From Nitrospirota bacterium (GTDB taxonomy: Bacteria > Nitrospirota > 9FT-COMBO-42-15 > HDB-SIOI813): a DNA stretch of 64,000 nt. Below are positions 1 through 11,696 of this stretch, piece by piece. Location: NCBI GenBank assembly GCA_016212215.1, contig JACRGV010000005.1:1391-65390 (forward strand). The letters run 5' to 3'. Each line of letters begins with the position of its first letter. Position 1 is the first letter of the stretch. The translations under genes were made by a program, and so were the position numbers. The notes under the pieces are model-generated. The model made no database searches. It saw nothing but the letters and a program-made list of their open reading frames with translations, and had not been told where the DNA came from.

Positions 1-571
1 AGAGAACAATCTCCGTCGAATGGGTAAAATACCTACAAGAAAGATTCGGAGGCGCGTTGCGTTTGTACCAAATAATATCATTAAGAATTTTATATCCAAG
101 CTCCTGCATAGCGAAGCCTATGGAGTAAATAATATGAGTTGTGCCGGAAACCCAAATCGTACCGTTAGGTTTCAAGACTCTCTGGCAAGCTCTAAGCCAG
201 TCAAGGGTAAACTCATGATTCTCTTTTACTCCCTTAGATTTATCCCACTTTCCCTTGTTTACAGAAACCATCTTTCCAGCATGGCAGGTAATTCCTCCGT
301 TAGAAAGAAAGTAAGGAGGATCTGCAAAAATCATGTCAACACTGTTTTCCCTTGCCTTATTCAAAATCTCGATGCAATCGCCTTTAAGAAGTTTTAATGA
401 ATATTCAGGGTTGTCATAATAAACAGTGAAAGGTCTTTTGCCGTTATTCCCGTATGTGGCTGTTTCTTCTGATATATAAAATTCAACGGGATGTTCAAGG
501 CTATGCCCGATTGACTTATTAAGCAGTACGGTAGTTCTTGCTTTTTTTTTATTGTCTGTTGGTTTTATCAT
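1..571 (-). CDS. Site-specific DNA methyltransferase (N6-adenine/N4-cytosine, beta-class). 5' portion only; the C-terminus runs off the window edge.
   Basis: Minus-strand translation from the ATG at complement(569-571): MIKPTDNKKKARTTVLLNKSIGHSLEHPV...DMIFADPPYFLSNGG...WVSGTTH. It carries the DPPY catalytic motif of amino-MTases. It is absent from the ORF track because it is open to the window edge. Confidence 0.75.
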   Translation of the reverse strand, partial: MIKPTDNKKKARTTVLLNKSIGHSLEHPVEFYISEETATYGNNGKRPFTVYYDNPEYSLKLLKGDCIEILNKARENSVDMIFADPPYFLSNGGITCHAGKMVSVNKGKWDKSKGVKENHEFTLDWLRACQRVLKPNGTIWVSGTTHIIYSIGFAMQELGYKILNDIIWYKRNAPPNLSCRYFTHSTEIVL

Positions 572-626
572 GGTTGTTTTTCATTAAAGGCATTCTAAGG
601 TGAACTAAGATGAAATCAATTGATAA

Positions 627-818
627 TTATTCCTCAAGCATGTCTGCAATAAACTGAATTGCATCAGGGTTTGCCTTGTATTTCCGCAGTAAAACGACAA
701 TCTCATTAATTGTCATATACCCGTTTTCAGAAATAACATCATTCTCCGGAATAAACGTTTTGTTTACTGTTAGCATGGTGTTCTCCTTTTGTCTTTCTGT
801 TTGTTTTTCAAATTCCAT
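627..818 (-). CDS. Small hypothetical protein immediately upstream of the methyltransferase.
   Basis: 63-aa ORF co-oriented with and 55 bp upstream of the MTase. It has no recognisable motif; it could be a controller or accessory protein, or noise. Confidence 0.3.
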   Translation of the reverse strand: MEFEKQTERQKENTMLTVNKTFIPENDVISENGYMTINEIVVLLRKYKANPDAIQFIADMLEE

Positions 819-1450
819 CTATCCTTTAGATTCCATACTTTTTGCACTAAATGAGTCAACTCAACCAATTAAATAATAACCCTATCTAATACGTATTTGC
901 TTTTCTTCTGATGTTAAAGTAGCAGGATGAGACTATGCTGTCAATAGGAATTTTGCCTGTTGTCAAACTTTGTCAAACCTTGTTGTTGAAAGCAAATAAC
1001 CTGCGGTTTATCTTTATTTCATTAATTGCTACCTTCTCCCTTACCTCATAAAAGGGATATTTGCTGAACATCTCTTTTCGGTGTTCAAGGGTGGGGATAT
1101 ATTTTGCAGCAACATCTCCTATCATTTCCTACTATCTCCGTTATAGTTTAAGGTTACAAAGATTACAAGTAAAAGACGCCAAATTCTAACATTTAGAAAG
1201 AAGCATGTAAACATGCTTCAGTTGCCCCCTTGCATGTTTTTTTCCAGCCTTTTTATCCTCTTCCTGTCTTCAAGTATAATCGCTACAAGCATGGCCTCAT
1301 AAGGGGTGACCCATAGAGGCGTACGCCTGTGCCTGAACGTGCCTGCGTATGTCAATCCAGCATCTCATCAAGGATGGTCTGGCCTTCCTTTCTGAGTGCC
1401 CGGCGGAACTTCTGCCAGCGAAGCCGCTCTTCGTCAAGCAGCATTGTTGG

Positions 1451-1577
1451 CAGCAATTCTCGGTGAATCATATCTCCCTTGCTAATACGGGACAAGAATG
1501 TCCCGCCTATCGCGATAGGCGGGGTTTTCTAACCCCGCTGTAAGAGCATTTGCCCGATATTTCACCGAGAATTGCTG
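1451..1577. mobile_element. MITE copy A: 127 bp with perfect 17-bp terminal inverted repeats (CAGCAATTCTCGGTGAA / TTCACCGAGAATTGCTG), flanked by a 9-bp direct duplication CATTGTTGG.
   Basis: TIRs and TSD were read directly from the sequence. The interior holds nested hairpins (GGGACAAGAATGTCCC; GCCTATCGCGATAGGC; GGCGGGGTTTTCTAACCCCGC). A second near-identical copy lies at 6341-6467. Confidence 0.8.
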
Positions 1578-1683
1578 CATTGTTGGTGTGGGAAGGGTTC
1601 TACCCATTTAGTACCTCATTTCAAATTTATCCACTTCAAATCCCCCCATCCCCCCTTTTCTAAAGAGGGGTATATGAGTTTCT

Positions 1684-1735
1684 CTTGCTTCTTACTTCTG
1701 ACTTCTGCTTACTGCTAACACCTTACTGCTCACTA
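1684..1735. repeat. Heptanucleotide tandem array (CTTNCTN)n.
   Basis: cttacttctgacttctgcttactgctaac..., with 7-nt periodicity, downstream of the lexA stop. Confidence 0.7.
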
Positions 1736-2317
1736 TTTTATCGCCCTGTACAACCCAACAACCTTGCCCAGAATCTCAGGCTGAGGTATATGCCCTTTAA
1801 GGGGAATATCTTTATATGCAGGGTTCGCAGGTTCAAGGAAGACATCTTTCCCTTTCTTTCTAAATGTCTTTACTGTTGCCTCGTCACCAATAAGGGCTAC
1901 AACTATATCTCCTGAATCAGCAGTCTCCTGTTGTTTTACGATAATATAGTCACCATCGAACATGCCTGCACCTGTCATGCTGTCTCCACGCACCCTGAGT
2001 GCAAAATGCACTGAACTGCCCACAAACTTAGCATCAAGAGGAAGCGTGCCTTCTATATTCTCAACAGCCAGAACCGGCATCCCGGCTGCAACACGCCCGA
2101 CCACAGGTATCCCCTCTCCCCTGAAATAGCGGCCATGCAATACCTCAACAGCCCTTCGTTTTCCTGGAGAACATCTCAGATACCCCTTTTTCTCAAGCGC
2201 CCTCAGATGGTCTTTAACACCCTTTACTGTAATACCACCCATAGCCTTCGTCATCTCATAAAGCGTCGGGGGATACCCCAATCCGGCCATTGTGGTCTCT
2301 ATATATGACAACAACTG
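1733..2317 (-). CDS. lexA: LexA repressor (S24 peptidase family).
   Basis: The N-terminal DNA-binding region reads ...LTLRQQQLLSYIETTMAGLGYPPTLYEMTKAMG. The C-terminal autocleavage domain has the GDSM serine motif and a conserved Lys. The frame stays open upstream to ...KLTALTLRQQQ with no canonical ATG (a TTG start was assumed). Confidence 0.9.
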   Translation of the reverse strand, partial: QLLSYIETTMAGLGYPPTLYEMTKAMGGITVKGVKDHLRALEKKGYLRCSPGKRRAVEVLHGRYFRGEGIPVVGRVAAGMPVLAVENIEGTLPLDAKFVGSSVHFALRVRGDSMTGAGMFDGDYIIVKQQETADSGDIVVALIGDEATVKTFRKKGKDVFLEPANPAYKDIPLKGHIPQPEILGKVVGLYRAIK

Positions 2318-2365
2318 CTGCTGCCTTAATGTAAGTGCCGTAAGTTTTTAATCCGTCATAAACAA

Positions 2366-2388
2366 ACTATACTATATATAAGTATAGT
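2366..2388. promoter_or_regulatory. Candidate LexA operator (SOS box): perfect palindrome ACTATACT-ATATATA-AGTATAGT in the divergent lexA/truA promoter region.
   Basis: 8-bp perfect inverted arms with a 7-bp AT spacer, about 30 bp upstream of lexA. It is the only strong palindrome in this intergenic region. Confidence 0.45.
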
Positions 2389-2461
2389 ATGTCAACCCCT
2401 GTTTTATATTTTATGTACCTGCTTGCAAAAATATTGAAGTCGGGTTAATCTCTCAACTTCA

Positions 2462-3265
2462 GTGATGACAAATAATATAAAACTTCTTATTGAGTACGAT
2501 GGGACGAACTATCACGGCTGGCAGAGGCAGGCAAATCTCCTGACAGTACAGGAGGTGCTTGAAGAGGTACTTGGTCGCATTACAAAACAGACCATTAAGG
2601 TAACCGGGGCCTCCCGTACTGATGCGGGCGTACATGCATTAGGACAGTCCGTAAGTTTTAAGAGCAATCTTCAAATAGATGAAACCTCATGGGTAAAGGC
2701 CATCAACTCATTGCTCCCCCATGACATAAGGATAAAAAAAGCAGAGTATGTGCCTATGGAATTTAATGCAAGATTCAGTGCAAAGGGAAAGACATACCAG
2801 TATGCAATATTGAATGTTGAGCAGATGTCTCCTTTCCTGAGGAACTACGCATGGCACATAAAAAGGCCTCTTGATATATATGCAATGAAGGAGGCTGCAG
2901 GGTATCTCTTGGGTACCCATGATTTTTCTTCTTTCAGGTCATCACAGTGCAGTGCCAAATCTCCGGTCAGGACATTGGAGAATATTGAGGTTGCTATGTT
3001 AATCCCCCCTCCCTTGACTGGAGGGGAAAAGGGGGAGGGTGAGCTACGAGTATTTCCAGATAATCCCCTTATCCTTCTCACCTTTGAGGCACGTTCATTC
3101 CTTCAACACATGGTCAGGAATATTGTGGGGACACTTGTGGAGGTTGGAAGAGGGAGGTTTAAACCTGCAGATGTTAAAAATATTTTAGAGAAAAAAGACC
3201 GTCGTCACGCAGGACAGATTGCCCCTTCGCAGGGATTGTTTCTGGTAAAAATAAAGTACGGGTAA
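2462..3265 (+). CDS. truA: tRNA pseudouridine(38-40) synthase TruA, carrying an in-frame repeat insertion.
   Basis: MMTNNIKLLIEYDGTNYHGWQRQ...RTDAGVHA (catalytic Asp)...FLQHMVRNIVGTLVEVG. The segment MLIPPPLTGGEKGEGELRV has no counterpart in other TruA proteins and is encoded by a GC-hairpin repeat copy. Confidence 0.9.
   Translation: MMTNNIKLLIEYDGTNYHGWQRQANLLTVQEVLEEVLGRITKQTIKVTGASRTDAGVHALGQSVSFKSNLQIDETSWVKAINSLLPHDIRIKKAEYVPMEFNARFSAKGKTYQYAILNVEQMSPFLRNYAWHIKRPLDIYAMKEAAGYLLGTHDFSSFRSSQCSAKSPVRTLENIEVAMLIPPPLTGGEKGEGELRVFPDNPLILLTFEARSFLQHMVRNIVGTLVEVGRGRFKPADVKNILEKKDRRHAGQIAPSQGLFLVKIKYG
3004..3044. repeat. GC-rich palindromic hairpin repeat (CCCTCCC-N-GGGGAGGG family), inserted in-frame inside truA.
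   Basis: cccccctcccttgactggaggggaaaagggggagggtgagc. The same family recurs about 30 times in the window. Confidence 0.8.
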
Positions 3266-3295
3266 GTACCCTCCTTCCGTTAGCCGGGAAAATAA

Positions 3296-3634
3296 TTATT
3301 TTTTCTGTGATACAATCTTTGACAGCCTGCCCTTTTCCCTGAGCTGTTCTATCATTACCTCACGCATCAGCTTACATGCCTGAACCACCTTCAGGTTTGA
3401 AATCCTGTAATAGATATTCACCCCATCCCTGCGGAAGTTGAGTATACCCTTTGCCTTCATAATAGAAAGGTGCTGGGACAGGTTTGCCGGCCTGATATCC
3501 ATCTTCTCAGCAATCTCACCCACTGAAAGCTCTTTATCACCAAGAATACTTATAATCTCAAGCCTCTTTGCATTTGCCATAATCTGACAGATACCCGCAT
3601 GCAGTTCAAAAATATCTTTGTCCATATTTAACAC
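3296..3634 (-). CDS. ArsR/SmtB-family transcriptional regulator.
   Basis: Winged-HTH core ICQIMANAKRLEIISILGDKELSVGEIAEKMDIRPANLSQHLSIMKAKGIL. Confidence 0.8.
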   Translation of the reverse strand: MLNMDKDIFELHAGICQIMANAKRLEIISILGDKELSVGEIAEKMDIRPANLSQHLSIMKAKGILNFRRDGVNIYYRISNLKVVQACKLMREVMIEQLREKGRLSKIVSQKK

Positions 3635-3766
3635 CCTCTGAATAAGTTTCGAAACTATGAAACTACTATACTAATTAAAGATAATGGTGTCAATCATTAG
3701 GCTGTTAACAGTACCTTTTGAAGTTTATACTGAAATCAGCGGCGGCGTTTTATTGTTATTATTATA

Positions 3767-4543
3767 TTATATTGGTGTGTTCATGATTTTTTGTGAGAGT
3801 GTTGATTCCCAGCACTGAAGTGTCTTTATTGCGTTGAATTCAGTAAGGTCAAGGCGGAGGGGGGTTATTGATACCATGTTTTCTTCGATTGCTGAGAAAT
3901 CGCTGTCTTCTGTCTTCTCCCATGAGAGTCTGCTCCCGCCGATCCAGTAATATTTCCGGCCCCTCGGATCTACTTTCTCAACTATCGCATTTTTGTCGTA
4001 TATACGCTTACCCTGACGTGTTATCTTCATCCCTCTTATCTCACTCATATCCAGATTGGGGACATTTACATTAAGTAAGACACCGGCAGGCAATGATTGC
4101 TCTTTGACTAATGCGGCAATAATACATGCAATCCGGGCAGATGTCTCAAACTTATAATCTCCCTCTGCAACCTGTGATACAGCAAATGACGGGACTCCGA
4201 GTAATGTGCCTTCAAATGCTGCGGACACTGTCCCTGAATATGTAACATCATCTCCAAGATTTGCACCCTTATTTATACCCGATACAACAATATCCGGCTT
4301 TGCCGGGAGTATCCCATTGATGGCAAGATTAACACAATCAGTCGGCGTACCGCTTACGCTATAGGTTTTATCAGCAACCTCATCCATTCTCAGAGGCTTG
4401 TGTAATGTGAGTGCATGACTTGCCGCAGTCCTCTCCCTGTCAGGAGCAACAATATACACCTCACCAATGACTCTGAGTGCATCAGCAAGTATGTGAAGCC
4501 CCTTTGAATGTATACCATCGTCGTTAGAAACTAAAATTAGCAT
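3767..4543 (-). CDS. surE: 5'/3'-nucleotidase SurE.
   Basis: N-terminus MLILVSNDDGIHSKGL...; the SurE signature DDG and the overall length match. Confidence 0.9.
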   Translation of the reverse strand: MLILVSNDDGIHSKGLHILADALRVIGEVYIVAPDRERTAASHALTLHKPLRMDEVADKTYSVSGTPTDCVNLAINGILPAKPDIVVSGINKGANLGDDVTYSGTVSAAFEGTLLGVPSFAVSQVAEGDYKFETSARIACIIAALVKEQSLPAGVLLNVNVPNLDMSEIRGMKITRQGKRIYDKNAIVEKVDPRGRKYYWIGGSRLSWEKTEDSDFSAIEENMVSITPLRLDLTEFNAIKTLQCWESTLSQKIMNTPI

Positions 4544-4574
4544 ATTTTTAAAAAATCTCCATCCAAAAATCTCT

Positions 4575-4650
4575 CCGGCGGGGTAAGAAAACCCCGCCTA
4601 TCCAGATATATATCAAGGATAGGTGGGACATTCTTGTCCCACTCATTTTC
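4575..4650. repeat. Hairpin-module repeat element (GGCGGGGTAAGAAAACCCCGCC ... GGATAGGTGGGACATTCTTGTCCC), related to the element at 6311-6527 and to the MITE interior.
   Basis: The modules GCGGGGT..ACCCCGC and GGGACATTCTTGTCCC are shared with the other copy and, in inverted orientation, with the MITE core. Confidence 0.65.
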
Positions 4651-4759
4651 ATCCTTTGTGAGCCTATGCTCATGAATCTTTCATTTAATCATTTGACATT
4701 CATTTGGACTTTGATTTTTGATATTTGGATTTATTTCTCTGTGCCTCTGTGGTTATTAT

Positions 4760-4836
4760 TGGTCGGGGCGAGCCGATTTGAACGGCCGGCCACTCCCACC
4801 CCAAGGGAGTGCGCTACCGGGCTGCGCCACGCCCCG
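4760..4836 (-). tRNA. tRNA-Pro (anticodon GGG).
   Basis: Manual fold of the minus strand. Acceptor CGGGGCG/CGCCCCG, D-stem GCGC/GCGC, anticodon stem CUCCC/GGGAG with loop UUGGGGU (anticodon GGG), T-arm GGCCG-UUCAAAU-CGGCU, discriminator A and an encoded CCA. Confidence 0.75.
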
Positions 4837-4839
4837 AAA

Positions 4840-5139
4840 TTAAGACTTCAATAGATTTAGGACACCTTTTAAATCTTCAATGACCTTCTTAATAACCTTA
4901 CTGTCTTTACCGGACTGGTCCTGAAGTTTTTTTCTGGCCCCTGCAATAGTAAAGCCCTCTTCATAGAGCATCTTTTTGATATTCAATATCGCATCAATAT
5001 CTTTTTGCTCGTAAACCCTCTGACCGCCTCTGTTCTTACGGGGAGATAAAAAACGAAATTCTGTTTCCCAGTATCTCAGGACGTAAGACTCAAGTCCTGT
5101 AATTTTGCTGACTTCACTTATCTTGTAGAATAGCTTCAT
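4840..5139 (-). CDS. MerR-family transcriptional regulator.
   Basis: N-terminal MerR HTH: [38 protein letters not shown]. Confidence 0.8.
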
Positions 5140-5167
5140 GATGGTAAAAGTAGATTAGAAACTACAA

Positions 5168-5362
5168 GGTCAGGCCCTAAGGTCTGTCATAAAATAACCT
5201 ATACATTTATGCATCTCATCTTCCGGCCATCTTTGTGTGCTCCTCAATCGCAACCCCTCAGCGTAGATTCTACTACGCCTTCGGGTTTGCTCAATCGGTC
5301 GCACTCAAACCTGACCGAAATCTGAGCGCCTAAATGCACAAGTTATTTCATGACAGACCCTA
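5168..5362 (-). other. About 195-bp element bounded by 15-16-bp inverted repeats (CTTAGGGTCTGTCAT / ATGACAGACCTTAGGG), lying between the ihf stop and the merR start. Candidate structured ncRNA or second MITE-like element.
   Basis: The long-range inverted repeat and an internal hairpin (CGTAG-TAGAAT-CTACG) were read directly. No coding potential. Confidence 0.25.
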
Positions 5363-5406
5363 AGTGAATTTTATATAAACTTCATGCCGCTTCCTAACTC
5401 TGACCT

Positions 5407-5709
5407 TTATTCCTCATCAACCGCATCAATCTTTTCACCGTTAATATACTGTTTAAATATATGGCTTGGCCTGAATGTTACAACCCTGCGGGGTGTTATA
5501 CCAATCTCTTCACCGGTCTTTGGATTGCGCCCCTTTCTCTCACGTTTTTTCCTTATAACAAAATTTCCAAAGCCTGCTATCTTCACTGTCTCACCATGTT
5601 TAAGGCTATCCTTCAGAGTATCCAGGATAAGCTCAACAATATCGAGCGCCTCTTTTTTTGAAATCCCAATCTTGTCATACAGCTCACCGGCAATATCTGC
5701 TTTCTTCAC
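5407..5709 (-). CDS. Integration host factor / HU-family DNA-binding protein.
   Basis: GFGNFVIRKKRERKGRNPKTGEEIGITPRRVVTFRPS is the IHF/HU beta-arm signature. The ihf-MerR pairing is a conserved arrangement. Confidence 0.85.
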   Translation of the reverse strand: MKKADIAGELYDKIGISKKEALDIVELILDTLKDSLKHGETVKIAGFGNFVIRKKRERKGRNPKTGEEIGITPRRVVTFRPSHIFKQYINGEKIDAVDEE

Positions 5710-5798
5710 AAACTATTCCTCCGAAAAACCTAAGCAAATTAACCTAAACTTCCGGTTACTAAGACCCCGAAAATATTATTATAAATAGAAACCAGTGT

Positions 5799-5838
5799 CA
5801 CCCCTCCCCTTAATCCCCTCCCGCAAGGGGAGGGAAAA
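5799..5838. repeat. GC-hairpin repeat copy.
   Basis: cacccctccccttaatcccctcccgcaaggggaggg. Confidence 0.75.
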
Positions 5839-5848
5839 AGTTAGAAAG

Positions 5849-6280
5849 TCAAGGATGCTTCACTGAAATGATCACAGGATTATATTTACCATCTTTAAGA
5901 GCACTTTTATTGTATAACCATATTCCTACATAAAAAATAATCATAAACAATATTCCGGACAGGGCAGCATAAGGGTCTGAACCTGTTACAGCCTTGCCCA
6001 CGAAACTGCCTATAAAGAAACCGATTAGAGGTACCATATACGCAATAAAAGATGCCGTTAAAAAAGTCTTGGACCTCATTGAAACCTCTACCATTTCCCC
6101 AACAGAAGCGCCAAGTTCATTCTTTGCTTCAATAACTACATTTGTATCTGACCCTGACGAGGGCTTGCACAAACTCTTTGATGCACAGCTTCCGCATGAT
6201 GTCCCGCGAACAGCCCTGACCTTCGCCATCCCGTTATGCACCTCAATCACGATGCCTTCTTCTGTCATTCCTTCCTGCAT
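5849..6280 (-). CDS. RseC/MucC-family protein (sigma-E positive regulator / SoxR-reducing system component).
   Basis: N-terminal GIVIEVHNGMAKVRAVRGTSCGSCASKSLC Cys cluster, followed by two hydrophobic helices. Confidence 0.6.
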   Translation of the reverse strand: MQEGMTEEGIVIEVHNGMAKVRAVRGTSCGSCASKSLCKPSSGSDTNVVIEAKNELGASVGEMVEVSMRSKTFLTASFIAYMVPLIGFFIGSFVGKAVTGSDPYAALSGILFMIIFYVGIWLYNKSALKDGKYNPVIISVKHP

Positions 6281-6310
6281 ATTAAAACTCCTTACACCAT
6301 ACCCGAAAAT

Positions 6311-6527
6311 CCCTACGGCGGGGTAAGAAAACCCCGCCTACAGCAATTCTCTGTGAATCATATCTCCATTGCTAATACGGGACAAGAATGTCCCGCCTAT
6401 CGCGATAGGCGGGGTTTTCTAACCCCGCTGTAAGAGCATTTGCCCGATATTTCACCGAGAATTGCTGACCCCGCCTATCCATTTCTATGAGGATAGGCGG
6501 GACATTCTTGTCCCGCTGATTTTCTAA
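6311..6527. repeat. Hairpin-module repeat element (second copy of the 4575-4650 type), split by the nested MITE insertion.
   Basis: cggcggggtaagaaaaccccgccta | MITE | tccatttctatgaggataggcgggacattcttgtcccgc. Confidence 0.7.
6341..6467. mobile_element. MITE copy B: 127 bp with the same 17-bp TIRs, flanked by the 9-bp duplication CCCCGCCTA, inserted into another repeat element.
   Basis: Near-identical to copy A (about 3 substitutions). The TSD was read directly: aaaaCCCCGCCTA|cagcaatt...aattgctg|aCCCCGCCTAtcc. Confidence 0.8.
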
Positions 6528-6622
6528 CTGCCTGTCATGGTTCGACAGGCTCACCATGGCACCTTGGCTGTCATCCTGAGCTTGTCGAAGGATGACCCGA
6601 TTTCCGCTTACCTTTATGACTC

Positions 6623-8206
6623 CTACCCATCATTCATCACCTTATCTTTGAGTAACTTATATTCTATGCTATCCACAAGTGCCAACCAGCTTGCCTCAAT
6701 GATATTATCTGAAACCCCTACTGTCCCCCACTTTCTCTGTTTATCCCCTGATTCAATCAAGACCCTCACCCTTGAGGCCGTACCTCTCACGCCTGTAAGT
6801 ACCCTCACCTTATAATCAATTAAGCCGACATCTTTGAGTGATGGATAAAACTTTTCAAGTGCCTTTCTTAGTGCATTATCAAGTGCATTAACAGGGCCAT
6901 TTCCGACTGCCGCAGTATGCTCAATATCACCGTCTACATTAAGCATTATCGTTGCCTCTGATTCCGTAGATGCCCCTTCTTTTCTCTTCTCCACAATAAC
7001 CCTGAAGCCTATAAGGTTAAAAAAACTCTTATGAAGGCCAAGCGACCTCTTCATCAGGAGTTCAAATGACCCCTCAGCGCCCTCAAACTGATACCCCTTG
7101 TCTTCCATCTCCTTCAATACATTCAGTACATTCTGCAATTTCGGATGGTCTTCCTGTTTAACAATAATACCGTAATCACCGGCCTTCTGAAGAATAGTGC
7201 TTATGCCTGAATAGTCCGATACAAGCATCCTCCGGACATTTCCCACGTCACCAGGATTTACATGCTCATAGGTATTTGATTTCTTCCTGACTGCATGAAC
7301 ATGAAGCCCGCCTTTATGTGTAAAGGCGCTGTCCCCTACATAAGGCTGGCGTCTGTTTGGAGGTATATTGGCTATCTCACTTACAAAATGCGATACATTA
7401 CGCAGATTTCTGAGCTGCTGGTCAGGTATGCAGTCTATATCAAGTTTCAGTTTCAGGTTCGGTATTATTGAACAAAGATTGGCATTCCCGCACCTTTCCC
7501 CCAAGCCATTGATCGTCCCCTGAACATGAGATGCCCCTGCCTCCACTGCCATAATTGAATTGGCAACCGCAAGGTCAGAGTCGTTGTGGGCATGTATCCC
7601 GTAAGATACCTTTACCTCACGCCTTGTATCTTTAAATATCCTCTTTATATCATCAGGCATGGTCCCGCCGTTGGTATCACAGAGTACAACACAATCCGCC
7701 CCGCCTTCGAGAGATGCCTGAAGTGTCTGAATTGCAAATTCCGCATTAGCCTTGAAACCATCGAAGTAATGTTCAGCGTCAAAGAATACATACTTACCTT
7801 CTGACTTCAGATATGAAACAGATTCTTTTATCATCTCTAAATTCTTTTTCAGGGTTATGCCGAGTGCCTCTGTTACATGAAAATCCCAGCTCTTACCGAC
7901 TATTGTAACACAACCGGTCTCTGCCTGCAGAAGTGCAGTAATATTAGGGTCTTTCTTTACATTAGTAGCAGCCTTCTTTGTACTGCCGAAGGCTACTATT
8001 TTTGAATTATTAAGATGAAGATTCTTTACCTCTTTGAAGAACCTTGTATCTTTTGGATTTGCACCAGGGAATCCTCCCTCAATATAATGGACACCAAGAG
8101 AATCCAGCTTTCCGACAATCCTAAGCTTATCTTCAAGCGTAAAAGAGACATCCTCAGCCTGCGCCCCATCACGGAGGGTTGTATCGTAAATTAGTATTTT
8201 TCTCAT
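6623..8206 (-). CDS. cimA: (R)-citramalate synthase / 2-isopropylmalate synthase family, with a LeuA-type C-terminal regulatory domain.
   Basis: MRKILIYDTTLRDGAQAEDVSFTLEDKLRI... DRE-TIM metallolyase N-terminus. The 527-aa length and the C-terminal allosteric domain are typical of CimA. Confidence 0.75.
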   Translation of the reverse strand: MRKILIYDTTLRDGAQAEDVSFTLEDKLRIVGKLDSLGVHYIEGGFPGANPKDTRFFKEVKNLHLNNSKIVAFGSTKKAATNVKKDPNITALLQAETGCVTIVGKSWDFHVTEALGITLKKNLEMIKESVSYLKSEGKYVFFDAEHYFDGFKANAEFAIQTLQASLEGGADCVVLCDTNGGTMPDDIKRIFKDTRREVKVSYGIHAHNDSDLAVANSIMAVEAGASHVQGTINGLGERCGNANLCSIIPNLKLKLDIDCIPDQQLRNLRNVSHFVSEIANIPPNRRQPYVGDSAFTHKGGLHVHAVRKKSNTYEHVNPGDVGNVRRMLVSDYSGISTILQKAGDYGIIVKQEDHPKLQNVLNVLKEMEDKGYQFEGAEGSFELLMKRSLGLHKSFFNLIGFRVIVEKRKEGASTESEATIMLNVDGDIEHTAAVGNGPVNALDNALRKALEKFYPSLKDVGLIDYKVRVLTGVRGTASRVRVLIESGDKQRKWGTVGVSDNIIEASWLALVDSIEYKLLKDKVMNDG

Positions 8207-8220
8207 ATATTCTTTTATAG

Positions 8221-8303
8221 GTTATGGGTAACGGGTTACAGGTAATGAGTAAGAAGTATCCCTTCTTGCTTCTTACCTCTAACTTCTAACTTCTTCCTTC
8301 CAG
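8221..8303. repeat. Heptanucleotide arrays in both orientations (GGTTATG/GGTAACG... then CTTCTTG/CTTCTTA/CCTCTAA...).
   Basis: 7-nt periodicity read directly. The two oppositely oriented halves can pair as a long imperfect hairpin, lying between the lysC stop and the cimA start. Confidence 0.7.
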
Positions 8304-9555: not shown

Positions 9556-9987
9556 TTATAAACTATGGTTCTTAAGATTTTTCTGCGAGTAACTACTTTC
9601 CCCTCCCTTGATGGGAGGGGTTAGGGGAGGGTGATTCAAACAATTCTCCCTAATAACTTCTAATACTCCCTCTATGTTTACTAACACTTCATTATTCCAA
9701 AATCTTAAAACCTTAAACCCCTGTGAGCTAAACCATTCGTCTCTTTCCTTATCTTTGTCTATTTCTATTGAATGCTGTCCCCCGTCAACTTCTATTATTA
9801 TTTGTTTTTCATAACAAACAAAATCTACAACATACTTACCAATAGGCTCCTGCCTTCTGAATTTATATCCTTCTAACTGCTTTGCTCTTAAATATTTCCA
9901 TAATACATTTTCTGTATCAGTTAATCTCTTTCTAAGAGTTTTAGCTATATTATTTATTTTGTTCTTAAATGTCGTAGGCACCCCCAC
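9556..9987 (-). CDS. DUF559-family protein (Vsr-like endonuclease fold), flanked on both sides by GC-hairpin repeats.
   Basis: ...YVVDFVCYEKQIIIEVDGGQHS...RDEWFSSQGFKVLRFWNNEV is the DUF559 core. The C-terminal HPPLTPPIKGGES is read from repeat copy 9598-9633. Confidence 0.6.
   Translation of the reverse strand: MGVPTTFKNKINNIAKTLRKRLTDTENVLWKYLRAKQLEGYKFRRQEPIGKYVVDFVCYEKQIIIEVDGGQHSIEIDKDKERDEWFSSQGFKVLRFWNNEVLVNIEGVLEVIRENCLNHPPLTPPIKGGESSYSQKNLKNHSL
9598..9633. repeat. GC-hairpin repeat copy.
   Basis: ccctcccttgatgggaggggttaggggaggg. Confidence 0.75.
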
Positions 9988-10017
9988 CCTACCCCTCCCC
10001 CATCAAGGGGGAGGGAA
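9980..10017. repeat. GC-hairpin repeat copy.
   Basis: cacccccaccctacccctcccccatcaagggggagggaat. Confidence 0.8.
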
Positions 10018-10320: not shown

Positions 10321-10383
10321 TTGTCTTCTCCTATCTTGCTTCTTACTTCTGACTTCTTGCTTCTACCTTCTGCTCACTGCTGC
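10321..10383. repeat. Heptanucleotide tandem array.
   Basis: cttgcttcttacttctgacttcttgcttctaccttctgctcactgc. Confidence 0.7.
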
Positions 10384-11606
10384 CTGTCTAAAAACCTCTC
10401 AATCAGCCTCGTCCCATTCTCTACAAAGACCCCGCTGTCAGCCGCATTAAACTCATCATAAGGTCTGTCAGACTTCTCTGTCTCACTGCTGTCATAAAGG
10501 ATAAATGGTATAGGCTCCGGTGAGTGGGTCTTTAAGGCAACAGGGGTCTTATGGTCACACAGTATCAGTATCTTGAAATCACCCTTGCCCTTCATACCTT
10601 CTAAAATCGTCCCGACAACCTTGTCATCAATCTCTTCGATTGCCTTTACCTTGCCGTTGATGTCTCCATTATGTCCGGCCTCATCCGGGGCCTCAACGTG
10701 TATGAATATCATGTCCTTATTTTTATCAAACAGCTCTTTCAGTGCATACTCACCTTTTCCCTTATAGTTTGTATCAATGTAACCTGTTGCCCCGGGGACA
10801 TGTATAATGTCAAACCCAGCATATTTACCTATACCGTTTGTCAGGTCCACTGCTGAAATCATTGAGCCGTTCAGTCCATACTTTACATGAAATGTCTCTA
10901 ACCGAGGTGCCTTGCCCTGCCCCCAGAACCATATCCCGTTTGCAATCTTATCCCCTCTCTCCTTACGCCGGATATTAACTGGGTGGTACTGCAAAATACC
11001 AAGTGCCTTATTCATAATCTCCATCAGGACATCAACCCCGTCACCTGTTGGAAGATAACCCTGAACAGCCTTATCAGTAATATCATGCGGCGGTGTACAC
11101 ATCATCCCAGCCTTACCGTTCTTCCACACGAACAGATGACGGTAACTAACACCGGGGTAAAATTTGAAAGTGTCATTCCCAAGATTTTCATCGAGGAACA
11201 ATAACAATTCTCTTGACTCATCAGTAGTAATGTGTCCGGCACTGAAATCCGCCATAATCACATCATCCGACAGCCTGTCATTAATATACTTCCCGTTCCT
11301 TGTAAGGCTGACCGTATTGCACCTGAATGCAACATCATCCTTCCCCAGAGTTACGCCCATACTTGATGCCTCAAGAGGAGACCTTCCGGTGTAACACTCA
11401 GCAGGGTCATAACCAAGAAGACTCATCTGTGTAACATCACTGCCTGGATAAAACCCATCAGGGGTAAGCTTCACAAGCCCAAGGACTCCCTTTCTTGAAA
11501 GAGAATCCATGTTAGGTATCCTTGCCGCCTGTAAAGGCGTCTTCCCACCCAACTGCTCTACAGGATTATCCCCCATCCCGTCACCGACTAAGATAATATA
11601 TTTCAT
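10374..11606 (-). CDS. apgM: 2,3-bisphosphoglycerate-independent phosphoglycerate mutase, archaeal-type (ApgM).
   Basis: MKYIILVGDGMGD...LQAARIPNMDSL... matches the ApgM family signature; the length is about 410 aa. Confidence 0.85.
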   Translation of the reverse strand: MKYIILVGDGMGDNPVEQLGGKTPLQAARIPNMDSLSRKGVLGLVKLTPDGFYPGSDVTQMSLLGYDPAECYTGRSPLEASSMGVTLGKDDVAFRCNTVSLTRNGKYINDRLSDDVIMADFSAGHITTDESRELLLFLDENLGNDTFKFYPGVSYRHLFVWKNGKAGMMCTPPHDITDKAVQGYLPTGDGVDVLMEIMNKALGILQYHPVNIRRKERGDKIANGIWFWGQGKAPRLETFHVKYGLNGSMISAVDLTNGIGKYAGFDIIHVPGATGYIDTNYKGKGEYALKELFDKNKDMIFIHVEAPDEAGHNGDINGKVKAIEEIDDKVVGTILEGMKGKGDFKILILCDHKTPVALKTHSPEPIPFILYDSSETEKSDRPYDEFNAADSGVFVENGTRLIERFLDRQQ

Positions 11607-11627
11607 AGTTTCCTTCCCTCTATCATT

Positions 11628-11696
11628 TTTCCTTCTTTCTTCTTACATCTTACATCTTACATCTTGCTTCTTACTTCTTACTTCTAACTTCTTCCC
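11628..11696. repeat. Heptanucleotide tandem array.
   Basis: tcttacatcttacatcttacatcttgcttcttacttcttacttctaacttctt. Confidence 0.8.

What the first reader, a model, noticed from the sequence alone, without database searches (positions are those of the whole stretch)
1451..1577. 127-bp MITE with perfect 17-bp TIRs and 9-bp TSD; the second copy is nested inside another repeat
Copy A (1451-1577) is flanked by the direct repeat CATTGTTGG. Copy B (6341-6467) is flanked by CCCCGCCTA and interrupts a hairpin-module element (6311-6527) whose uninterrupted relative lies at 4575-4650. The two copies are about 97% identical, which implies recent mobility, so an autonomous partner encoding a transposase that generates a 9-bp duplication should exist elsewhere in the genome. 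The MITE interior shares hairpin modules (GCGGGGT..ACCCCGC and GGGACA..TGTCCC) with the element it has inserted into, suggesting a related origin.
Basis: seen in the sequence. Interest (0 to 1): 0.65.

Follow-up and report, generated by a model that had tools for sequence, protein, structure and literature searches.

The report
Miniature transposon nested in REP repeats
A 127-bp non-coding "hitch-hiker" transposon occurs twice in this Nitrospirota genome piece and has really moved, because a related genome has the exact empty site, but it is an ordinary new member of a well-known kind of element.

Summary
The two 127-bp copies (1451-1577, 6341-6467) are 125/127 identical. Copy A has perfect 17-bp TIRs and an exact 9-bp duplication. 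Copy B has one TIR mismatch, and its exact duplication is 10 bp (ACCCCGCCTA).

The same 17-mer ends bound ~1.7-kb insertion sequences in other bacteria. These encode a 433-442-aa IS4-like DDE transposase; PGAP labels distant homologues "ISNCY". Fifteen other paired elements there have exact 9-10-bp duplications.

A related MAG (L258) has one CCAACAATG exactly where copy A sits, inside an 85-aa DUF8156 gene. That is a textbook empty site.

Copy B sits in a hairpin doublet. Those hairpins are REP-type repeats: in metagenome contigs the same two hairpins flank a Y1 (RAYT-like) transposase gene. The MITE core is itself such a doublet, conserved in 87%- and ~81%-identical homologues (L192, L110). 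So the nest is REP doublet > DDE MITE > REP doublet.

The autonomous partner could not be looked for in the source genome. It is absent from the window, and only a truncated copy was seen in a Nitrospirota locus.

Verdict: a genuine, recently mobile MITE, new member of a known kind, modest interest.

The parts
1451..1577 (.). MITE copy A, 127 bp, no coding capacity
   Evidence: family D3. DNA fold -36.9 kcal/mol, z = -9.4. Exact empty site in L258.
1451..1467 (+). Left TIR of copy A, CAGCAATTCTCGGTGAA
   Evidence: Identical to the ends of the full-length IS copies L005, L031 and L103.
1561..1577 (-). Right TIR of copy A (perfect complement of the left TIR)
   Evidence: I20.
1442..1450 (.). Target-site duplication of copy A, first copy (CATTGTTGG)
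   Evidence: Present once in L258.
1578..1586 (.). Target-site duplication of copy A, second copy (CATTGTTGG)
1488..1537 (.). REP doublet core of copy A: hp2 CGGGACAAGAATGTCCCG (1488-1505), tags CCTATC-GCG-ATAGG (1506-1519), hp1 CGGGGTTTTCTAACCCCG (1520-1537). The tags face inwards.
   Evidence: The same two hairpins flank Y1_Tnp genes in metagenome loci.
1212..1607 (-). Remnant of an 85-aa DUF8156-type gene, split by copy A after codon 9-10 and also frameshifted twice (approximate limits)
   Evidence: three frames. L258 has the intact ORF at 2770-3027 with Pfam DUF8156. blastn HSPs.
6341..6467 (.). MITE copy B, 127 bp, 125/127 identical to A
6341..6357 (+). Left TIR of copy B, one mismatch (T at 6352)
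6451..6467 (-). Right TIR of copy B
6331..6340 (.). Target-site duplication of copy B, first copy (10 bp, ACCCCGCCTA)
6468..6477 (.). Target-site duplication of copy B, second copy (10 bp, ACCCCGCCTA)
6378..6427 (.). REP doublet core of copy B (identical to that of A)
6318..6340 (.). Left part of the host REP doublet (hairpin GCGGGGTAAGAAAACCCCGC plus CTA), cut by copy B
   Evidence: (D6).
6468..6516 (.). Right part of the host REP doublet (duplicated ACCCCGCCTA, then TCC, spacer, GGATAG tag and hairpin GCGGGACATTCTTGTCCCGC)
   Evidence: (D5, D8).
4578..4642 (.). Uninterrupted paralogous REP doublet. It gives the pre-insertion sequence AAAACCCCGCCTATCC.
   Evidence: It is absent from the merR/tRNA-Pro/surE spacer of relatives.

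Best explanation
[quoted passage not shown] Its 17-bp ends are the recognition ends of a large, poorly annotated group of ~1.7-kb insertion sequences. These IS encode a 433-442-aa IS4-like DDE transposase with an N-terminal DDE_Tnp_1_assoc region. NCBI's pipeline labels distant homologues 'ISNCY family'.

Inferred mechanism: a transposase supplied in trans binds both TIRs, excises or copies the element, and joins it to a target cut with a 9-nt stagger (sometimes 10). Repair of the stagger makes the flanking duplication.

Shown: copy A landed in codons 8-10 of a small DUF8156 gene downstream of lexA. Copy B landed in the tag and stem of a REP-type hairpin doublet that had itself been inserted between cimA and rseC.

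The middle of the MITE is another such REP doublet. That doublet belongs to a separate Y1/RAYT-type system and has been part of this MITE lineage since before it diverged to 81-87% identity.
For: Anatomy in the window:
- 127 bp with no ORF, 17-bp TIRs, and exact 9- and 10-bp duplications.
- The two copies are 98.4% identical in unrelated flanks.
- The DNA fold has z = -9.4.

Link to a transposase:
- The same 17-mer bounds complete IS copies: L005 (1719 bp), L031 (1753 bp, 9-bp TSD), L103 (1709 bp), L011 (2148 bp, duplication matching at 8 of 9) and L073 (1710 bp), plus L030 (1909 bp), whose reading frame carries three stop codons. L002 holds the transposase gene with only one end.
- In each, the ends lie ~180-210 bp before and ~210-430 bp after a homologous ORF.
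- The ORF passes the Pfam DDE_Tnp_1 threshold (29.4 and 26.2 bits against 23).
- D129, D218 and E338 are invariant in 8 sequences.

Duplication length in the family:
- 13 exact 9-bp and 2 exact 10-bp duplications among paired ends.
- A 10-bp duplication flanks the Nostoc punctiforme IS, whose ends start CAGCAATTCTC.

Empty and filled sites:
- L258 has a single CCAACAATG, and homology to the window stops exactly at 1450/1451 and 1577/1578.
- For copy B, the paralogue at 4578-4642 shows the uninterrupted target.
- Relatives have cimA and rseC adjacent or overlapping, with neither repeat.

Homologues elsewhere:
- L192 has the same 127-bp length and is 111/127 identical, with a decayed 7/9 duplication.
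- L110 and L161 are partial copies.
Against: - No transposase homologue lies in the 64-kb window, and the rest of the source genome could not be searched.
- Among 19 Nitrospirota loci carrying the 17-mer, only a truncated transposase remnant was seen (L118).
- No sampled IS shares the MITE's sub-terminal arms beyond ~23-29 nt, so the direct parent is unidentified.
- Only two copies are visible.
- By my calculation, a pattern with 16 specified bases is expected about 280 times by chance in 596 Gb.
Confidence: 0.9

Rival explanations
1. The whole 127-bp unit is a REPIN/BIME-type element moved by the Y1 (RAYT-like) transposase that owns its internal hairpins, and the outer inverted repeats are only accessory.
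For: The core is a REP doublet whose two hairpins flank Y1_Tnp genes. The core is better conserved than the arms: 50/52 against 29/41 versus L192.
Against: By established knowledge, HUH/Y1 transposition makes no target duplication and needs no TIRs. Here exact 9/10-bp duplications abut TIRs that are identical to those of DDE insertion sequences. Free REP doublets in the window and in the metagenome loci lack these TIRs; only L161 and L192 of 120 hairpin-bearing loci have them.
Confidence: 0.03
2. Each copy is what is left of a full-length IS that lost its interior in place, so the small element itself never moved.
For: MITEs are thought to arise by internal deletion of an IS (PMC3184786). Truncated IS remnants of this family exist (L118).
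Against: Two independent deletions would not give the same 127-bp product with identical breakpoints and an identical REP core. The same 127-bp architecture also occurs in L192.
Confidence: 0.03
3. The element is a genuine MITE but a fossil in this genome. The partner IS has been lost, so it is no longer mobile.
For: No partner in the window. Only a truncated partner was seen in Nitrospirota loci. Only two copies were seen. One IS copy elsewhere carries stop codons (L030).
Against: The duplications are still perfect and the copies differ at 2 of 127 positions, whereas the homologue L192 has a decayed duplication (7/9) and 87% identity. A close relative still has the empty site. The transposase family is very large: 7,995 clusters at E <= 1e-20 among 8,000 scored.
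Confidence: 0.3
4. It is a structured non-coding RNA gene or regulatory hairpin cluster duplicated by recombination, not a transposon.
For: It folds very stably, lies in intergenic or 3' positions, and contains terminator-like hairpins.
Against: No Rfam family matches even at E <= 1; only tRNA-Pro and chance hairpin hits far below threshold were found. The flanks are unrelated, the duplications differ between copies, and an empty site exists.
Confidence: 0.02

Closest known systems
Bacterial MITEs derived from DDE insertion sequences (e.g. Nezha with ISNpu3-like IS in Anabaena/Nostoc; MaeMITEs of Microcystis)
   Same: About 130 bp, non-coding, with TIRs shared with an intact IS, flanking direct repeats, a very stable predicted fold, and filled versus empty sites between related genomes (as described for Nezha in PMC3184786).
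   Different: The host is an uncultured Nitrospirota MAG. The core is a REP doublet of a Y1/RAYT system. Whether Nezha's parent belongs to the same IS group could not be tested: the original paper is not held, and I recall no TIR sequence.
IS group that PGAP names 'ISNCY family transposase' (e.g. WP_234711115.1 on Nostoc punctiforme pNPUN02, L123 541-2181)
   Same: Ends start CAGCAATTCTC, length is ~1.64 kb, the duplication is 10 bp, and there is a DDE_Tnp_1-type transposase.
   Different: Those proteins are only 35-45% identical to the IS copies that carry the exact 17-mer. The MITE itself encodes nothing.
IS4 family (IS10, IS50)
   Same: RNase-H-fold DDE transposase of the DDE_Tnp_1 type, and a 9-bp duplication (the latter from my own knowledge).
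   Different: NCBIfam IS4, IS701, IS1380 and IS1634 models score 11-22 bits against cut-offs of 100-180, so it is not a member of any of these defined families.
REP / BIME / REPIN repeats with their RAYT transposase (REPtrons)
   Same: This applies to the hairpin modules. They are ~20-nt GC-rich palindromes with an unpaired tag at one end, arranged as head-head or tail-tail heterodimers. They sit downstream of genes and flank a Y1_Tnp gene in inverted orientation (definitions in PMC3733652, PMC3116915, PMC3333891).
   Different: The tag is mostly (G)ATAGG rather than GTAG, with GTAGG in 7 of 124 occurrences. Copy number in this genome is unknown. No RAYT was found in the window by a crude motif scan.
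REP sequences as insertion targets of IS elements (Tobes and Pareja 2006, PMC1525189)
   Same: A transposase-dependent element sits inside a REP.
   Different: Those IS are REP-specific.
REP dimers embedded in longer palindromes (Anabaena variabilis GTAG-15; PMC3733652 section 7). From memory only, the nested small dispersed repeats of Nostoc punctiforme (Elhai et al. 2008).
   Same: REP doublets lie inside a longer inverted-repeat element, and small repeats are nested within each other.
   Different: Those cases were not tied to a DDE IS with target duplications. Here the outer element is demonstrably a DDE-type MITE.

Membership tests
Prokaryotic MITE | Small (well under 600 bp) and without coding capacity | tested here: met
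   127 bp. Only spurious ORFs cross it.
Prokaryotic MITE | Terminal inverted repeats | tested here: met
   17/17 in copy A and 16/17 in copy B.
Prokaryotic MITE | Target-site duplication abutting both ends | tested here: met
   9 bp for A and 10 bp for B.
Prokaryotic MITE | Several near-identical copies at unrelated loci | tested here: met
   Two copies at 98.4% in the window. Homologues L192 (87%) and L110. The genome-wide count is not testable.
Prokaryotic MITE | TIRs shared with an autonomous IS | tested here: met
   L005, L031, L103, L011 and L073. These are all in other organisms. A partner in the same genome is not testable with these tools.
Prokaryotic MITE | Empty site in a related genome | tested here: met
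   Copy A: L258 has a single CCAACAATG at the exact position. Copy B: only a paralogous uninterrupted target (4578-4642), plus relatives that lack the whole spacer.
IS4-like DDE IS group labelled ISNCY by PGAP (as parent of the MITE) | Transposase with a DDE_Tnp_1 domain and invariant D, D, E | tested here: met
IS4-like DDE IS group labelled ISNCY by PGAP (as parent of the MITE) | Ends beginning CAGCAATT(C/A)T and a 9-10-bp duplication | tested here: met
Defined NCBIfam IS families (IS4, IS701, IS1380, IS1634) | Score at or above the curated cut-off | tested here: not met
   Best scores are 11-22 bits against cut-offs of 100-180.
REP/REPIN-RAYT system (for the hairpin modules only) | Short palindrome with an unpaired GTAG-like tag at one end | tested here: inconclusive
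   The tag is CTATC/GATAG in 67 and CTACC/GGTAG in 7 of 124 occurrences. The first base departs from GTAG.
REP/REPIN-RAYT system (for the hairpin modules only) | The repeats flank a Y1 (RAYT) transposase gene in inverted orientation | tested here: met
   L133, L142, L164, L191 and L240. Three of the five proteins (L142, L164, L191) were scanned and give Y1_Tnp E = 5e-13 to 4e-12.
REP/REPIN-RAYT system (for the hairpin modules only) | High copy number in the host genome and a RAYT gene in that genome | not testable with these tools
   Only 4 doublets in 64 kb, two of them inside the MITE copies. No RAYT motif in the window.
Nezha MITE (ISNpu3-like) | Same TIR sequence and parent IS | not tested
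   The original paper is not held. This is a lead from memory only.

The most novel reading that the evidence does not exclude
The 127-bp element may be a stable chimera of two unrelated mobile systems: DDE-IS ends wrapped around a RAYT-type REP doublet. On this reading the doublet is functionally required. It might hold the two ends together, act as a terminator or insulator, or let a Y1 transposase also act on the element. MITE copies could then also seed REPs in genomes that lack a RAYT.

The hint is that the core is kept nearly invariant while the arms drift:
- 50/52 against 29/41 versus L192.
- 40/43 against 15/19 versus L110, which was found independently of the core.

This is weakened by ascertainment, because L192 was fetched with a 19-mer of the core. 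It is also weakened by possible gene conversion with free REPs.
Probability: 0.12. Interest if true: 0.55.

Novelty: new member of a known kind. Interest (0 to 1): 0.3.

Why it matters
It gives a clean, fully documented MITE in an uncultured Nitrospirota lineage, with ends, duplication, empty site and parent IS family. It also ties that MITE to a very large, almost unannotated IS group, where most members are called 'hypothetical protein'. That is useful for annotating MAGs, and it explains why contigs break at these repeats.

It shows how the cimA-rseC junction, where the two genes overlap or touch in relatives, was pushed 342 bp apart by successive small insertions. It also shows a small gene being knocked out.

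The side result may be of wider use than the MITE itself: the hairpin modules are REPs of a RAYT-like system that is widespread in sediment, peat and groundwater metagenomes.

Tried and rejected
- Metagenome scan for the right arm plus TIR (GCCCGATATTTCACCGAGAATT): 0 hits.
- Two viral-contig scans with arm/TIR junctions: 0 hits and 2 chance hits without TIRs or transposase.
- Exact-protein look-ups for the window's rseC-like and LexA ORFs: not on record. The window's own NCBI contig is not in the position index; only a 1.8-kb Logan contig is.
- tblastn of the transposase against the window: nothing.
- Rfam at gathering and at E <= 1: nothing relevant.
- NCBIfam naming of the transposase: no family.
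- ISfinder subgroup (ISDol1, ISMae2): the literature held gave no end sequences, so no assignment was made.
- Crude HUH/Y-motif scan for a RAYT in the window: none.
- Test of a family-wide preference for structured or REP targets: negative. Only the two window sites are unusually structured, so 'REP-targeting IS' was rejected as a general property.
- A parent IS with the same sub-terminal arms: none among 148 ends.

Full report
**Observation.**
- They align without gaps and differ at 2 of 127 positions.
- Copy A has perfect 17-bp TIRs and the exact 9-mer CATTGTTGG abutting both ends.
- Copy B has one mismatch in its left TIR.
- Copy B's abutting exact direct repeat is the 10-mer ACCCCGCCTA (6331-6340 and 6468-6477).
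- Four matches to the 17-mer occur where 0.25 are expected.

**Source and setting.**
- The window's citramalate synthase is identical to MBI5191877.1 of a 'Nitrospirae bacterium' MAG, on a contig of 73,972 bp.
- The first 10 kb carries core genes on the minus strand: lexA, arsR-type, surE, tRNA-Pro, merR-type, HU/IHF, rseC-like, cimA and ask. truA lies on the plus strand.
- Copy A lies 146 bp downstream of lexA.
- Copy B lies between cimA and rseC.

**Link to a transposase.**
- A scan of species-representative genomes with the 17-mer hit its 120-locus limit.
- By my calculation about 280 chance matches are expected for 16 specified bases in 596 Gb, so I relied only on structured evidence.
- Paired ends 72-280 bp apart (MITE-like) or 1.7-2.1 kb apart occur in many phyla.
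- Among the pairs, 13 have exact 9-bp and 2 have exact 10-bp duplications.
- Nine loci carry a homologous ORF next to the ends. Five of these look like complete IS copies, and a sixth (L030) carries stop codons.
- L031 306-2058 is complete, with a 433-aa ORF and the duplication TTTTCTCTT.
- The protein passes the Pfam DDE_Tnp_1 threshold and has a near-threshold DDE_Tnp_1_assoc N-terminus.
- D129, D218 and E338 (in an RWKIENETF motif) are invariant.
- No NCBIfam IS model comes near its cut-off.
- Homologues at 35-45% identity on plasmids are annotated 'ISNCY family transposase' or 'hypothetical'.
- The Nostoc punctiforme copy has ends CAGCAATTCTCAT... and a 10-bp duplication. The Saccharobesus copy has CAGCAATTATTGGTGAA.
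- The family is very large and mostly unnamed: 7,995 clusters at E <= 1e-20 among 8,000 scored, many on ~1.7-kb contigs.

**Empty site.** A related MAG, GCA_028715355.1, is 81-90% identical in the flanks.
- Its locus L258 reads ...CCCTTCCCACA CCAACAATG CTCCTTGATG... with one copy of the 9-mer.
- The window, read on the minus strand, has CCAACAATG, then the MITE, then CCAACAATG.
- The blastn alignments end exactly at 1577/1578 and 1450/1451.
- The target is in codons 8-10 of an 85-aa ORF that carries Pfam DUF8156 in L258.
- The window's orthologue is split by the MITE and also has two frameshifts.

**The cimA-rseC spacer (copy B).** No precise orthologous empty site was found, but the junction is very variable.
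- The two genes overlap or touch in relatives at 78-79% identity, and in one member of the >=90% cluster (L245-L250, L256).
- They are 163 bp apart, with other hairpins, in L253.
- They are 342 bp apart in the window.
- An 87% relative has the first hairpin 36 nt after the cimA stop, at a contig end (L244).
- The paralogue at 4578-4642 gives the uninterrupted target AAAACCCCGCCTATCC.

**What the 'hairpin modules' are.** The 19-mer CGGGACAAGAATGTCCCGC has more than 120 exact hits in metagenome contigs.
- In 79 of 124 occurrences it is followed by a CTATC, CTACC or CTATT tag.
- It often pairs with GATAGG-CGGGGTTTTCTAACCCCG, either tags-outside or tags-inside.
- In five loci a 150-165-aa ORF with HUH and Y motifs lies between the two hairpins. 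GATAGG-hp1 is just upstream (clearest in L191 and L240) and hp2-CCTATC just downstream (L142, L164, L191). The three proteins scanned (L142, L164, L191) match Pfam Y1_Tnp at E = 5e-13 to 4e-12.
- This is the REPtron layout described for RAYTs (PMC3733652, PMC3333891, PMC3116915).
- So the host element of copy B, its paralogue, and the MITE's own core (1488-1537) are all tail-to-tail REP heterodimers.
- The core belongs to the MITE lineage: L192 has the same 127-bp layout (111/127), and L110 has the same left half and core.
- L161 is a truncated variant.

**Mechanism.**
- Shown: the ends, the duplications, the empty site, and the parent IS family.
- Inferred: trans-mobilisation by the DDE transposase with a 9-nt staggered target cut (occasionally 10).
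- Unresolved: how the REP doublet got between the ends. It could be RAYT-type insertion into an ancestral MITE, or capture during MITE formation.
- The family shows no target consensus and no preference for structured targets. The landing in a REP is therefore best read as incidental, although both window sites are unusually structured.
- As RNA, the nested inverted REPs are predicted to form a long duplex in the cimA-rseC spacer. Any effect on rseC expression is speculation.

**Rivals.**
- A RAYT-moved REPIN is contradicted by the duplications and the DDE-type ends.
- In-place decay of two IS copies is contradicted by identical 127-bp products.
- An RNA gene is contradicted by Rfam silence and the empty site.
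- The only live alternative concerns activity: the partner may be absent from this genome. It is not in the window, and only a truncated copy was seen in Nitrospirota loci.

**Verdict.** This is a genuine, recently transposed MITE, a new member of a known kind. The triple nest (REP doublet, DDE MITE, REP doublet) and the RAYT link are a neat curiosity rather than a new principle.

Noticed in passing
L133 99-665, L142 998-1492, L164 578-1057, L191 5519-6028, L240 12786-13259: Y1_Tnp (RAYT-like) genes lie between the same two hairpins that make up the window's hairpin modules, GATAGG-hp1 upstream (clearest in L191, L240) and hp2-CCTATC downstream (L142, L164, L191). The hairpin 19-mer has more than 120 exact hits in sediment, peat and groundwater metagenomes.
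   Followed up: partly
L124, L125, L128, L132, L137, L141, L146 and about 20 more metagenome loci: A different, highly conserved multi-hairpin repeat of 150 nt or more carries the same 19-mer (...GGCGACTTTCCAGTCGCC...CGGGACAAGAATGTCCCGCAAACCCGCAGACAAGAATGTCTGCGCTAC...). It accounts for 26 of 124 hits and its nature is unknown.
   Followed up: no
window 6281-6622 (minus strand): cimA and rseC overlap or touch in relatives but are 342 bp apart here. The nested inverted REP copies are predicted to form a very long RNA duplex (-148 kcal/mol, z = -8.5), which might terminate or process the transcript.
   Followed up: partly
window 400-1730: An ORF-poor 1.3-kb stretch downstream of lexA. It aligns at 83-90% with L258, where intact small ORFs exist (DUF8156 and a 49-aa ORF). 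A 186-aa ORF present in L258 (2195-2755) is missing from the window. This looks like gene decay.
   Followed up: partly
window 1683-1714, 8264-8295, 10334-10379, 11601-11695: Tandem heptamer repeats (CTTCTKA-like) recur in intergenic spacers. Similar runs lie downstream of lexA in L258 and L257.
   Followed up: no
window 3006-3033, 5815-5842, 9600-9627, 9983-10017; L253 2395-2420: Another hairpin repeat family (CCCCTCCC..GGGAGGGG). A similar hairpin occupies the cimA-rseC spacer of the relative L253 in place of the REP doublet.
   Followed up: no
L016 1594-3235: A 143-bp MITE with a 9-bp duplication (3093-3235), plus a solo end at 1594, bracket a 394-aa non-transposase ORF. This could be a composite arrangement.
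   Followed up: no
L008, L019, L089, L100 (Nitrospirae nDJH8bin6) and many other loci: The 17-mer lies 100-300 bp from contig ends with identical sub-terminal sequence in several contigs of one MAG. This indicates multi-copy elements that break assemblies.
   Followed up: no
window 4760-4836: The gathering-mode Rfam scan of the whole window listed nothing. The E-value-mode scan of 1-7000 found tRNA-Pro at 55.7 bits, above its gathering score. A negative gathering-mode result on the full window should therefore not be over-read.
   Followed up: no
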